This document shows, one piece after another, positions 6,720-6,915 of a stretch of 16,878 bases of DNA (the stretch's first letter is position 1; every line of letters starts with the position of its first letter). The stretch is from Piscicoccus intestinalis (lineage in GTDB: Bacteria; Actinomycetota; Actinomycetes; Actinomycetales; Dermatophilaceae). The notes beneath the pieces were generated by a model. It was not told the origin of the DNA. It saw only the letters and a program-made list of their open reading frames with translations, and ran no database searches. A program made the position numbers and the translations under genes. The stretch is taken from assembly GCA_039812445.1 (NCBI GenBank), contig JBDIAM010000037.1, positions 1 through 16,878 on the forward strand, read 5' to 3'.

Positions 6720-6788
6720 CGTGTCGTCGCTTTCGTCTCTGCTGGGGTCAGGCCGGACAGCATGGACTCCGCGACGAGGGCGGCCTGT
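6720..6788 (-). promoter_or_regulatory. Attenuator-like structured leader between the leader-peptide stop and leuA start
   Basis: Mutually exclusive pairings: CAGGCCG/CGGCCTG (25-nt loop), CUCGUCGC with downstream GCGACGAG, and the UCGCCGCGGCGA palindrome inside the peptide ORF spanning the Leu codons. Purine-rich GACGAAAG precedes the leuA ATG. Confidence 0.4.
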
Positions 6789-6845
6789 CTAGTAGGCCTC
6801 GCCGCGGCGACGAAGCAGGAGGTTCCTGCGCGATCCGAAGAACAC
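6789..6845 (-). CDS. leuL: Putative leucine leader peptide (18 aa, V/M-FFGSRRNLLLRRRGEAY) of a leuA attenuator
   Basis: Small minus-strand ORF GTG(6845)...TAG(6789), 70 nt upstream of leuA, containing three consecutive Leu codons CTC-CTG-CTT. TACGGT -10-like hexamer sits 6 nt upstream of the GTG, compatible with a leaderless start. Followed by overlapping complementary segments (see regulatory feature). Confidence 0.5.
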   Translation of the reverse strand: MFFGSRRNLLLRRRGEAY

Positions 6846-6915
6846 CCCTGCACCGTAGCGGCTCCCGGCGCCGCGCGTCCACGCGGGTGCCGGCCCGGCG
6901 CGTCGGCACGCCCCG

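What the first reader, a model, noticed from the sequence alone, without database searches (positions are those of the whole stretch)
6720..6860. Leu-Leu-Leu leader peptide and attenuator upstream of leuA
An 18-codon ORF (V/M-FFGSRRNLLLRRRGEAY) with three consecutive leucine codons lies 70 nt upstream of leuA on the same strand. It is followed by several mutually exclusive stem options, including a palindrome spanning the Leu codons. This is the signature of ribosome-mediated transcription attenuation responding to charged tRNA-Leu. The leader appears leaderless (TACGGT -10 then GTG), so coupling of transcription start to translation start would be immediate.
Basis: partly seen in the sequence, partly recalled or inferred. 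Interest (0 to 1): 0.55.

Follow-up and report, generated by a model that had tools for sequence, protein, structure and literature searches.

The report
Known actinobacterial leuA leucine leader
The short leucine-rich reading frame in front of leuA is real and strongly conserved, but it is the already described actinobacterial "LEU element" (a leaderless leader peptide plus an RNA pseudoknot), which has no terminator and most likely controls leuA translation, not transcription termination.

Summary
An 18-codon ORF (GTG 6845 to TAG 6789, minus strand, VFFGSRRNLLLRRRGEAY) lies 69 nt upstream of leuA (6719-4929). A TACGGT -10 box ends 6 nt before its GTG.

It is not a chance ORF. 79 of 80 leuA loci from Micrococcales and Kineosporiales carry the same element:
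- a TAnnnT box 6-7 nt before an in-frame start codon;
- a Leu run (two or more adjacent Leu codons in 78 of 79), 51% CTT against 2% in leuA;
- an 11-bp hairpin (P1) with compensatory changes and the leader stop codon in its loop;
- a pseudoknot helix;
- a purine-rich ribosome-binding region complementary to the Leu-codon stretch.

A covariance model built without the window scores it 73 bits (E about 2e-17).

This is the LEU element of Seliverstov et al. 2005, also called leuL, which was mapped as a leaderless transcript in Streptomyces lividans and reported from RNA-seq in Corynebacterium glutamicum.

No U-tract terminator or antiterminator is present or conserved. My best reading is translational attenuation: a ribosome stalled at the Leu codons stops them from pairing with the leuA ribosome-binding site. 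That mechanism is inferred, not shown. Novelty is low.

The parts
6876..6881 (-). -35-like hexamer TGGACG, 18 nt upstream of the -10 box
   Evidence: Read from the sequence. The same TGGACG at 16-19 nt spacing occurs in 13 sequences including the window. At least 4 of 6 matches to TTGACA occur in 25 of 73 leader promoters against 11% at random positions. This is weak support.
6852..6857 (-). -10 box TACGGT, ending 6 nt before the leader GTG (leaderless geometry)
   Evidence: A TAnnnT box 6-7 nt before an in-frame ATG or GTG occurs in the window and in 72 of 79 related loci. Homologous leaders in S. lividans are reported as leaderless transcripts (PMC8079986). The transcription start in this organism is inferred, not measured.
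6789..6845 (-). Leader ORF (leuL-type): GTG...TAG, peptide VFFGSRRNLLLRRRGEAY
   Evidence: The frame, the Leu run and the C-terminal R-[CR]-R-[GD]-[EG]-A are conserved in 79 of 80 loci. It resembles C. glutamicum MTSRANLLLLRRGGSQRS (PMC8709942) and S. lividans MRFGLLLLSCRGEGL (PMC8079986).
6813..6821 (-). Regulatory Leu codons CTC CTG CTT (pyrimidine-rich, anti-Shine-Dalgarno-like)
   Evidence: In the 80 leaders the run is 51% CTT, 32% CTC and 12% CTG. In the leuA coding sequences CTT is 2.1% and CTG 65%. The last Leu codon is CTT in 72 of 80. The run ends 5 nt (73 of 80) or 2 nt (7 of 80) before hairpin P1.
6797..6807 (-). Hairpin P1, 5' arm CCGCGGCGAGG (codons Arg-Gly-Glu-Ala of the leader)
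   Evidence: This is the only helix in the RNAalifold consensus. 98.8-98.9% of cells are paired, 4 pairs change on both sides, and 0 of 500 shuffles reach the observed score. Third codon positions are invariant, while the first and second positions that vary are compensated in the 3' arm.
6769..6779 (-). Hairpin P1, 3' arm CCTCGTCGCGG
   Evidence: Same evidence as the 5' arm. The core 10 bp pair fully in 79 of the 80 sequences scored, which are 79 related loci plus the window. The leader stop codon TAG (6791-6789) lies in the P1 loop, as in all relatives.
6781..6787 (-). Pseudoknot helix, 5' strand CAGGCCG (3' part of the P1 loop)
   Evidence: It is 7 of 7 complementary to 6749-6755 (repeat I9, -14.3 kcal/mol). 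In an alignment of 40 relatives made without the window, the corresponding helix has 81% of cells paired and 3 pairs changed on both sides.
6749..6755 (-). Pseudoknot helix, 3' strand CGGCCTG
   Evidence: Across loci, the cognate loop-to-tail duplex averages -12.4 kcal/mol against -9.5 for shuffled tails (p = 3.5e-13) and -11.4 for non-cognate tails (p = 8e-4).
6724..6737 (-). leuA ribosome-binding region (GACGAAAGCGACGA), complementary to the Leu/Arg-codon stretch 6807-6816
   Evidence: TCGTCGC (6813-6807) pairs with GCGACGA (6730-6724) (repeat I8). The duplex with the Leu-run region is -12.4 kcal/mol and reaches the A of the ATG. In the folding ensemble this region pairs with the Leu region with probability 0.37 per base. 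It is also part of the minimum-free-energy fold.
4929..6719 (-). leuA (2-isopropylmalate synthase), the regulated gene
   Evidence: Pfam HMGL-like, IPMS_D2 and LeuA_dimer. NCBIfam PRK03739 at 893 bits and TIGR00970 at 840 bits.

Best explanation
This is the actinobacterial leuA leader, known as the LEU element or leuL.

A promoter (TGGACG, 18 nt, TACGGT) probably starts transcription at or next to the GTG at 6845. The mRNA would then be leaderless, and 70S ribosomes would translate an 18-codon leader directly.

The RNA folds into a compact structure with three parts:
- an 11-bp hairpin P1 (6807-6797 with 6779-6769), with the leader stop codon in its loop;
- a pseudoknot helix between that loop and 6755-6749;
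- a closing helix in which the pyrimidine-rich Leu/Arg codons (6816-6807) pair with the purine-rich region just upstream of the leuA ATG (6737-6724).

Proposed mechanism (inferred): this is translational attenuation. When charged tRNA-Leu is plentiful, the leader is read through quickly. The ribosome terminates inside the P1 loop and leaves, the structure re-forms, and the leuA ribosome-binding site stays masked. When charged tRNA-Leu is scarce, a ribosome pauses with the rare CUC/CUU-type Leu codons in its decoding centre. It then physically covers the anti-Shine-Dalgarno strand while leaving P1 intact, so the leuA ribosome-binding site is free and leuA is translated. Reduced leuA translation may also lower mRNA levels through Rho or decay.

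Shown here: the parts, their conservation and covariation, and family membership. Inferred: the transcription start, ribosome stalling and the direction of control.

The confidence given (0.6) is for identity and mechanism together. Taken separately, identity as a LEU element/leuL copy is about 0.95, and the translational mechanism is about 0.5.
For: Identity:
- A covariance model built from 40 relatives without the window hits 6739-6823(-) at 73.1 bits, E = 2.3e-17. The next best hit is 14.8 bits.
- 79 of 80 leuA loci carry the element.
- The published definition of the LEU element (leader ORF with Leu run, pseudoknot, base stem between the Leu run and the Shine-Dalgarno box, no terminator) matches part for part (PMC1262725).
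- The leader peptides of S. lividans (mapped as leaderless) and C. glutamicum (RNA-seq) are clearly homologous.

Translation of the leader:
- The in-frame start codon sits at a fixed 6-7 nt from TAnnnT.
- The Leu run is always in frame at a fixed 5 or 2 nt from P1, and the stop codon is always in the P1 loop.

RNA structure:
- P1 has 98.9% of cells paired, with compensatory changes that alter the amino acid, while synonymous positions stay invariant.
- The pseudoknot has 81% of cells paired, with covariation.

Masking of the ribosome-binding site:
- In the window the Leu/Arg-codon strand pairs with positions -1 to -11 of leuA at -12.4 kcal/mol.
- Across loci, the Leu-run region pairs with the Shine-Dalgarno region far better than with an internal coding segment (-11.8 against -7.3 kcal/mol, better in 66 of 79).
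- In most lineages outside the Micrococcaceae, the Leu-run region is the main predicted partner of the Shine-Dalgarno region.

Simulated stalled ribosome:
- Blocking 28 nt with the first Leu codon in the A site raises predicted accessibility of the ribosome-binding site from 0.37 to 0.49 (63 of 79 loci, p = 2e-11).
- The same block at the stop codon has no effect (0.38).
- In the window the peak (0.58) falls exactly at the first Leu codon.

Codon choice: CTT is enriched 25-fold in the run. That fits both a starvation-sensitive rare codon and mimicry of the 16S rRNA 3' end, CCUCCUU. The 16S sequence is my own knowledge, not checked here.
Against: - Covariation for the closing helix is weak. Cognate pairs average -11.8 kcal/mol against -10.8 for non-cognate (p = 0.047) and -10.8 for shuffled (p = 0.01). 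Most of the complementarity is therefore compositional, pyrimidine run against purine run.
- In Arthrobacter-type loci the Shine-Dalgarno region is predicted to pair with a CCUUUC stretch in the spacer and not with the Leu run.
- The simulated accessibility gains are modest, the codon-walk peak is broad, and the folding ignores the pseudoknot.
- As cited in PMC1262725, mutation of the leuA leader codons in S. coelicolor had only 'some effect... not consistent with classical attenuation'. Those authors favoured a protein-binding site. I could not read the original paper.
- The C. glutamicum literature calls leuL a transcriptional attenuator (PMC8709942).
- Nothing here measures transcription, translation or a leucine response in this organism.
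Confidence: 0.6

Rival explanations
1. Classical ribosome-mediated transcription attenuation. P1 acts as an intrinsic, possibly NusG-assisted, terminator or pause hairpin. A ribosome stalled at the Leu codons 5 nt upstream occludes its 5' arm and lets RNA polymerase read into leuA.
For: - P1 is a stable, GC-rich, strictly conserved 11-bp hairpin.
- The 12 nt after it are T-enriched: 36% against a 15% background. Arthrobacter has GTTTGTGTTG there.
- The Leu run is at a fixed 5 nt from the 5' arm, so a stalled ribosome would prevent P1 from forming.
- A review of C. glutamicum work describes leuL as a transcriptional attenuator found by transcriptome analysis (PMC8709942).
Against: - There is no U-tract. 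The window has AGUCCAUGCUGU with no UU at all, and the longest T-run is 3 or fewer in 79 of 80 sequences.
- The terminator scan found nothing on this strand.
- No conserved antiterminator exists.
- The stop codon is inside the P1 loop, so a ribosome reading through under leucine excess also blocks P1 until it is released.
- This model does not explain the conserved pseudoknot or the complementarity to the ribosome-binding site.
- The literature states that these leuA leaders lack a typical Rho-independent terminator (PMC8079986; PMC1262725).
Confidence: 0.17
2. Rho-dependent attenuation or polarity. When the leader is read through and leuA is not being translated, Rho loads on the naked RNA and terminates transcription early in leuA. 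Stalling at the Leu codons, or active leuA translation, prevents this.
For: - No intrinsic terminator is present.
- Seliverstov et al. raise Rho for the terminator-less cys leaders of Actinobacteria.
- It is compatible with, and could operate on top of, ribosome-binding-site masking.
Against: - The spacer shows no C-over-G bias. Its C/G ratio is 1.2, the same as the leuA coding sequence.
- The spacer is only 49 nt long and is largely structured.
- There is no direct evidence.
Confidence: 0.12
3. The conserved pseudoknot is the binding site of a trans-acting factor, either a protein as Seliverstov et al. proposed or a small ligand or tRNA. Under this model the leader ORF is incidental.
For: - The structure is compact and closed by a base stem, which is riboswitch-like architecture (PMC1262725).
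- GGAG immediately 3' of P1 is conserved and unexplained.
- The S. coelicolor mutational results were reported as atypical.
Against: - Reading frame, start-codon geometry, Leu identity and stop position are all conserved, which an untranslated protein-binding site would not require.
- There are few conserved unpaired nucleotides.
- No Rfam riboswitch or T-box matches.
Confidence: 0.08
4. It is a chance ORF in GC-rich DNA with no function.
For: GC-rich sequence produces many spurious ORFs.
Against: The element is conserved in 79 of 80 loci across several families, shows compensatory changes, and gets a leave-one-out covariance-model E-value of 2e-17.
Confidence: 0.01

Closest known systems
LEU element upstream of leuA in Actinobacteria (Seliverstov, Putzer, Gelfand, Lyubetsky 2005, BMC Microbiol 5:54; PMC1262725)
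   Same: Same position, directly upstream of leuA. It also has a leader ORF with a Leu-codon run, a hairpin plus pseudoknot, a base stem between the Leu-codon stretch and the leuA Shine-Dalgarno region, and no terminator. The genomes in that paper include Kineococcus and Leifsonia, which belong to clades represented among my 80 loci.
   Different: Nothing essential differs. The window's leader is a little longer before the Leu run (VFFGSRRN). In the window the strongest part of the base stem uses the two Arg codons after the Leu run. The window's Shine-Dalgarno sequence is weak (GAAAG).
leuL leader peptides mapped by RNA-seq: S. lividans LeuL1 MRFGLLLLSCRGEGL (PMC8079986), C. glutamicum MTSRANLLLLRRGGSQRS (PMC8709942, PMC4046766), C. 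diphtheriae MNRANLLLLRRGGSQA (PMC5784534)
   Same: The peptides are homologous (...NLLLRRRGE... in the window). The S. lividans leader is reported as leaderless and as lacking a typical Rho-independent terminator.
   Different: Those are from other orders (Streptomycetales, Mycobacteriales). The transcription start is measured in S. lividans but only inferred here.
Enterobacterial leu operon leader (Rfam Leu_leader RF00512) and other classical attenuators (trp, his, ilv)
   Same: A short leader ORF rich in codons for the pathway's own amino acid, using rare Leu codons. It senses charged tRNA through ribosome speed.
   Different: The classical type has a terminator hairpin with a U-tract and an overlapping antiterminator, and its leader ORF has its own Shine-Dalgarno sequence. 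Here there is no terminator, antiterminator or Rfam match. The mRNA is leaderless, and the output is most likely access to the ribosome-binding site.
Translational attenuation of ermC and cat (ribosome stalling in a leader ORF unmasks the downstream ribosome-binding site); my own knowledge, not checked here
   Same: It works like this. A stalled ribosome on the leader disrupts the helix that hides the Shine-Dalgarno sequence of the downstream gene.
   Different: The stall signal there is an antibiotic acting with the nascent peptide. Here it would be a hungry Leu codon. The two are not homologous.
Leaderless polycysteine upstream ORFs controlling cysteine genes in mycobacteria (Wade laboratory, 2020; my own knowledge, not checked here)
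   Same: A leaderless short ORF in an actinobacterium, enriched in codons for the pathway's amino acid, with no obvious intrinsic terminator.
   Different: It involves a different amino acid and different genes, and no conserved pseudoknot has been reported.

Membership tests
LEU element (PMC1262725) | Located immediately upstream of leuA on the same strand | tested here: met
   The leader stop codon at 6789 lies 69 nt before the leuA ATG at 6719.
LEU element (PMC1262725) | [quoted passage not shown] | tested here: met
   VFFGSRRNLLLRRRGEAY. The frame and the run are conserved in relatives.
LEU element (PMC1262725) | Conserved pseudoknot (a hairpin plus a loop-to-downstream helix) | tested here: met
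   P1 has 98.9% of cells paired and 4 pairs changed on both sides. The pseudoknot helix has 81% paired and 3 pairs changed on both sides. Pairing over the whole structure is 93% against 36-61% for slid controls, and 0 of 500 shuffles reach it. In the window the pseudoknot is the 7-bp CAGGCCG/CGGCCUG. On a second alignment, A2, the pseudoknot columns were out of register and only 46% of cells paired.
LEU element (PMC1262725) | Base stem formed by the Leu-codon run and the Shine-Dalgarno box of leuA | tested here: inconclusive
   It is present in the window at -12.4 kcal/mol, covering positions -1 to -11 and the A of the ATG, and it appears in the minimum-free-energy fold. Across the family the complementarity is clear against coding-sequence controls (-11.8 against -7.3) but only marginal against non-cognate or shuffled ribosome-binding regions (p = 0.047 and 0.01). 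It is not predicted in Micrococcaceae.
LEU element (PMC1262725) | Sequence and structure homology to other members | tested here: met
   The leave-one-out covariance model R1 gives 73.1 bits, E = 2.3e-17, and is the only strong hit in the window. Rfam has no model for this family.
Classical transcription attenuator (trp/leu/his type; Rfam Leu_leader) | Leader ORF with tandem regulatory codons | tested here: met
   Three Leu codons in the window, and one to five across relatives (only L003 has a single adjacent Leu codon).
Classical transcription attenuator (trp/leu/his type; Rfam Leu_leader) | Rho-independent terminator (GC-rich hairpin followed by a U-tract) between the leader and the structural gene | tested here: not met
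   No terminator-like site is found on the minus strand. The tail after P1 is AGTCCATGCTGTCC, and the longest T-run is 3 or fewer in 79 of 80 sequences.
Classical transcription attenuator (trp/leu/his type; Rfam Leu_leader) | Conserved antiterminator structure mutually exclusive with the terminator | tested here: not met
   The RNAalifold consensus contains only P1. The hairpin over the Leu codons in the window is only weakly conserved.
Classical transcription attenuator (trp/leu/his type; Rfam Leu_leader) | Match to the Rfam Leu_leader covariance model | tested here: not met
   No Rfam hit at the gathering threshold over the whole window, or at E up to 10 over 6600-7000.
Leaderless leader-peptide genes of Actinobacteria (leuL, ilvL, trpL) | Transcription starts at the start codon of the leader ORF | not testable with these tools
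   The geometry fits: TACGGT, 6 nt, then GTG, conserved in 72 of 79 relatives. The homologue in S. lividans was mapped as leaderless. No transcription-start data exist for this organism.
T-box or amino-acid riboswitch | Match to a known ligand- or tRNA-binding RNA family | tested here: not met
   No Rfam match.

The most novel reading that the evidence does not exclude
The LEU element may be a purely translational, ribosome-sensed switch in which the regulatory Leu codons are themselves the anti-Shine-Dalgarno strand. Their CUCCUCCUU sequence resembles the 16S rRNA 3' end. P1 and the pseudoknot sit a fixed 5 nt downstream, so a ribosome waiting for tRNA-Leu(GAG) unmasks the leuA ribosome-binding site without melting P1. 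No terminator would be involved. This would settle the mode of action, which has been unclear since 2005. It would also be a worked example of amino-acid-sensing translational attenuation on a leaderless mRNA.
Probability: 0.4. Interest if true: 0.5.

Novelty: already known. Interest (0 to 1): 0.28.

Why it matters
This copy adds little. It is an orthologous instance of an element reported upstream of leuA in most Actinobacteria, and it is useful mainly for annotation. Rfam has no model for it, so automated pipelines miss it.

The wider interest is that the mechanism is still unsettled. [quoted passage not shown]

The 80-locus comparison made here gives concrete constraints for experiments:
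- the fixed spacing between the -10 box and the start codon;
- the fixed 5-nt distance from the Leu run to P1;
- the stop codon always lying in the P1 loop;
- the 25-fold enrichment of the rare CTT codon;
- selection acting on the RNA, not the peptide, in the C-terminal codons;
- a lineage (Micrococcaceae) where the partner of the ribosome-binding site appears to have moved to the spacer.

The element also matters in practice. In leucine-producing Corynebacterium strains, leuL is removed to deregulate leuA (PMC8709942).

Tried and rejected
1. Rfam. The whole window at gathering thresholds, and 6600-7000 at E up to 10, gave no hits. No curated family covers this element.

2. Terminator and promoter consensus scan of 6500-7300. 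It found no promoter-like site. Its one terminator-like site is on the other strand, inside the upstream gene.

3. A second upstream ORF. In the window, GGAG (6770-6767) is followed after 3 nt by ATG 6763. That ORF ([15 protein letters not shown]) ends in a TGA overlapping the leuA ATG (ATGA), which suggested translational coupling. Across relatives, a start codon is missing in 11 loci. The stop overlaps the leuA start in only 19 of the 80 sequences, and the other stops are scattered from -48 to more than +1800. That is about what frame chance would give. I rejected it as a family feature.

4. Column-wise pseudoknot test on alignment A2. Only 46% of cells paired, because MAFFT placed the palindromic GGCC cores of different lineages in different registers. 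Alignment A3 resolved this, with 81% paired.

5. Rho-loading signature. The spacer C/G ratio of 1.2 equals that of the coding sequence, so there is no signal.

6. Exact-match look-up of the window's LeuA, to identify the organism. It is not on record. The best relatives are 79% (Branchiibius) and 78% (Nostocoides) identical.

7. The original S. coelicolor mutagenesis paper (Craster et al. 1999, PubMed 10517590) is not held in the library. I rely on its summary in PMC1262725.

8. The hairpin over the first two Leu codons (GCAGGA-ACC-UCCUGC), considered as a conserved antiterminator-like alternative. Pairing of the Leu run with the 5' part of the leader is predicted in only a minority of lineages.
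Full report
**1. What is in the window**

The window is GC-rich DNA. On the minus strand, 6719-4929 encodes a 596-aa 2-isopropylmalate synthase. Pfam finds HMGL-like, IPMS_D2 and LeuA_dimer. NCBIfam gives PRK03739 at 893 bits and TIGR00970 at 840 bits.

- TACGGT at 6857-6852, then six bases, then GTG at 6845-6843.
- Next come TTC TTC GGA TCG CGC AGG AAC CTC CTG CTT CGT CGC CGC GGC GAG GCC TAC and the stop TAG (6791-6789). The peptide is VFFGSRRNLLLRRRGEAY.
- 69 nt separate that stop from the leuA ATG.
- The palindrome GCAGGA-ACC-TCCTGC (6829-6815) spans the first two Leu codons.
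- Several alternative pairings exist.

The predicted transcript 6845-6700 folds at -60.3 kcal/mol, with z = -2.8 against dinucleotide shuffles.

**2. Is it more than a chance ORF?**

I fetched 80 leuA loci from species-representative genomes. They come from Intrasporangiaceae, Dermacoccaceae, Micrococcaceae, Microbacteriaceae, Cellulomonadaceae, Promicromonosporaceae, Kineosporiales and others. Their LeuA proteins are 67-79% identical to the window's.

- In 76 of 80, an upstream frame contains three or more Leu codons followed by [RSP]-[CR]-R-[GD]-[EG]-A and a stop, 64-152 nt before my anchor at the conserved leuA N-terminus. In some loci the real leuA start lies upstream of that anchor.
- At the nucleotide level, three more loci carry the same element with fewer Leu codons. 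L009 and L026 have two, and L003 has WWRL. Only L067 lacks it.
- In 72 of the 79 relatives, and in the window, a TAnnnT hexamer ends 6 or 7 nt before an in-frame ATG or GTG. This is the geometry of actinobacterial leaderless transcripts.
- A -35-like TGGACG 18 nt upstream is shared by 13 sequences including the window. This support is weaker.

**3. Conserved RNA structure**

RNAalifold on 75 sequences predicts one consensus helix, P1. In the window it pairs CCGCGGCGAGG (6807-6797) with CCTCGTCGCGG (6779-6769).

- On two MAFFT alignments, P1 has 98.8-98.9% of cells paired. Four pairs change on both sides; one column pair, for example, is AU 24, GU 23 and GC 21. None of 500 shuffles reaches the observed covariation, and slid controls pair at only 36-61%.
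- The leader stop codon always lies inside the P1 loop, 3-21 nt after the core 10-nt 5' arm. The Leu run always ends 5 nt (73 of 80) or 2 nt (7 of 80) before P1.
- The 3' part of the P1 loop pairs with a CCGGCC-like segment 9-14 nt downstream of P1, giving an H-type pseudoknot. In the window this is CAGGCCG (6787-6781) with CGGCCUG (6755-6749), 7 bp at -14.3 kcal/mol.
- In an alignment of 40 diverse relatives made without the window, this helix has 81% of cells paired and three pairs changed on both sides.
- Per-sequence duplexes are better than shuffled tails (-12.4 against -9.5 kcal/mol, p = 3.5e-13) and better than non-cognate tails (-11.4, p = 8e-4).
- Variants include GACCGGU/GCCGGUC, UAGCC/GGCUA, GGGCC/GGCCC and CGCCGGG/UCCGGCG.
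- A first column-wise test on another alignment failed (46% paired) because the palindromic cores were out of register.

**4. Is selection on the RNA or on the peptide?**

In the codons that form the P1 5' arm (Cys/Arg-Arg-Gly-Glu-Ala), the synonymous third positions are invariant in 68 sequences. Variation sits at first and second positions: Gly/Asp, Glu/Gly and Ala/Ser/Thr. Those changes are compensated in the 3' arm. This is the opposite of what selection on the peptide would give. The conserved "RCRGEA" tail therefore reflects RNA structure.

Translation is nevertheless supported by four conserved features: the reading frame, the start-codon geometry, the Leu identity of the run and the stop position.

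The Leu run is 51% CTT, 32% CTC, 12% CTG and 4% CTA. In the leuA genes of the same loci, CTT is 2.1% and CTG 65%. The last Leu codon is CTT in 72 of 80.

**5. Membership**

I built a covariance model from the 40 relatives, without the window and with P1 as its structure. It finds 6739-6823(-) at 73.1 bits, E = 2.3e-17. The next best hit in the window is 14.8 bits. Rfam has nothing here, even at E up to 10.

The literature does describe it.
- Seliverstov et al. 2005 (PMC1262725) named the region upstream of leuA in most Actinobacteria the LEU element.
- They defined it as a leader ORF with a run of Leu codons, a pseudoknot, and a base stem formed by the Leu-codon run and the leuA Shine-Dalgarno box. 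[quoted passage not shown] - C. glutamicum leuL is MTSRANLLLLRRGGSQRS (PMC8709942, PMC4046766).
- C. diphtheriae has MNRANLLLLRRGGSQA (PMC5784534).
- Mycobacteria have a homologous upstream ORF at leuA (PMC4974804).

The window's ...RRNLLLRRRGEAY belongs with these. The S. lividans peptide is almost identical to those of my Microbacterium and Rathayibacter loci.

**6. How it probably works**

The classical model needs a terminator and an antiterminator, and neither is present.
- The 14 nt after P1 read AGTCCATGCTGTCC.
- The longest T-run there is 3 or fewer in 79 of 80 sequences, although the tail is T-enriched (36% against 15%).
- The scan found no terminator on this strand.
- Only P1 is a consensus helix.
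- A ribosome at the leader stop codon would itself sit in the P1 loop.

What the sequence offers instead is masking of the leuA ribosome-binding site.
- In the window, UCGUCGC (6813-6807: the last base of the third Leu codon plus two Arg codons) pairs with GCGACGA (6730-6724, positions -5 to -11 of leuA). Weaker pairs from the Leu codons extend the duplex to the A of the ATG, for -12.4 kcal/mol in total.
- The minimum-free-energy fold stacks this helix on P1.
- Across loci, the Leu-run region pairs with the ribosome-binding region much better than with an internal coding segment (-11.8 against -7.3 kcal/mol).
- It is the main predicted partner of that region in most lineages outside the Micrococcaceae.

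I then simulated a stalled ribosome by forbidding pairing over 28 nt.
- With the first Leu codon in the A site, predicted accessibility of positions -17 to +3 of leuA rises from 0.37 to 0.49 (63 of 79 loci, p = 2e-11).
- With the last Leu codon in the A site, it is 0.45.
- With the stop codon in the A site, it is 0.38, which is not significant.
- A codon-by-codon walk peaks 2-4 codons before the last Leu codon.
- In the window the peak (0.58) falls exactly at the first Leu codon and drops to 0.32 once P1 would be melted. The likely reason is that the freed P1 3' arm carries the same UCGUCGC heptamer and can re-mask the site (repeat I7).

My best explanation is therefore translational attenuation. 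A ribosome waiting for charged tRNA-Leu at the run covers the anti-Shine-Dalgarno strand, leaves P1 and the pseudoknot intact, and frees the leuA ribosome-binding site. With ample leucine, the ribosome terminates in the P1 loop, leaves, and the fold closes again.

**7. Caveats**

- The closing helix has only marginal cognate-specific signal (p = 0.047 against non-cognate, 0.01 against shuffled). A pyrimidine run pairs with any purine-rich Shine-Dalgarno region.
- In Arthrobacter-type loci, the ribosome-binding region is predicted to pair with a CCUUUC stretch in the spacer instead.
- The accessibility gains are modest, and the folding ignores the pseudoknot.
- As summarised in PMC1262725, the S. 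coelicolor mutational study found effects "not consistent with classical attenuation". I could not read the original.
- The C. glutamicum literature uses the words "transcription attenuation".
- Rho-dependent polarity could add to, or replace, the translational effect, but the spacer has no C-over-G bias.
- A protein- or ligand-binding role, as proposed in 2005, is not excluded. It does not explain the conserved frame, start, Leu identity or stop position.

**8. A lead that did not hold**

In the window, GGAG-N3-ATG (6770-6761) opens a 15-codon ORF whose TGA overlaps the leuA ATG. Such an arrangement would imply translational coupling. In relatives, a start codon is absent in 11 loci. The stop overlaps the leuA start in only 19 of the 80 sequences. 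This is not a family feature.

**9. Verdict**

- The element is real and strongly conserved.
- The leaderless reading is well supported.
- "Transcription attenuation" is not supported by the anatomy.
- This is an orthologous copy of a known element, the LEU element or leuL, so novelty is low.
- The remaining interest is that the mechanism has never been settled. The constraints listed above make it directly testable.

Noticed in passing
window 6716-6770 (-): GGAG (6770-6767), then 3 nt, then ATG 6763 opens a 15-codon ORF ([15 protein letters not shown]). Its TGA overlaps the leuA start as ATGA. This looks like translational coupling, but the arrangement is not conserved: only 19 of the 80 sequences have an overlapping stop, and 11 loci lack a start codon.
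   Followed up: yes
window 6837-6845 and 6711-6717 (-): The first nine bases of the predicted leaderless RNA (GUGUUCUUC) are complementary to leuA codons 2-3 (GAAGAAC). In the minimum-free-energy fold they close the whole leader around the leuA start codon. I did not check this in relatives, and it may be chance.
   Followed up: no
window 6767-6770 (-) and the same position in L001-L080: GGAG immediately 3' of the P1 hairpin is highly conserved (GCGGAG in most loci). It is unpaired in the consensus structure, and no model here explains it. It could be an internal Shine-Dalgarno-like pause or stand-by site.
   Followed up: partly
L022, L023, L025, L029, L031, L035, L039, L053, L058, L066 (Arthrobacter and relatives), spacer before leuA: In Micrococcaceae the leuA Shine-Dalgarno sequence (AGAAAAGGCC) is predicted to pair with a CCUUUC stretch just after the pseudoknot 3' strand, and not with the Leu run. 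The P1 loop there is about 10 nt longer, and the leader peptide is extended (…SCRGEASDAI). This may be a lineage-specific rewiring of the masking helix.
   Followed up: partly
L030, L050, L056 (P1 loop): These three Arthrobacter-group loci carry 67-84-nt P1 loops, where 15-37 nt is usual. The P1 arms and the leader ORF are intact.
   Followed up: no
L067, L003, L009, L010, L026: L067 (a Cellulomonadaceae MAG) has no element at all. L003 (Austwickia) has ...SWWRLRCRDGA, with only one Leu codon next to P1 and two Trp codons. L009 and L026 have two Leu codons. L009 and L010 have a second CTC/CTT-CTG-CTG (LLL) triplet run just after the P1 3' arm.
   Followed up: partly
window 6916-7135 (-) and 6855-6919: A 73-aa ORF (…RKQVLLRLDPAVHEALSRWASDELRSVNAQIEIVLRRALEAEG…) ends 35 nt upstream of the leader's -35-like hexamer (58 nt upstream of the -10 box). 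It has no Pfam or NCBIfam hit. GC-rich inverted repeats (6855-6876 with 6898-6919, and 6887-6897 with 6899-6909) lie between it and the promoter, perhaps its terminator.
   Followed up: partly
window 4929-6719 (-): The exact LeuA protein is not on record in the large protein-position index. The closest species representatives are only 78-79% identical (Branchiibius, Nostocoides). The source organism therefore seems to be an unsampled relative of Dermacoccaceae or Intrasporangiaceae.
   Followed up: partly
window 2931-4862 (+): A 643-aa protein with two 3-hydroxyacyl-CoA dehydrogenase modules (two stretches each of 3HCDH_N and 3HCDH) is encoded convergently to leuA. Only 66 nt separate the two stop codons.
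   Followed up: no
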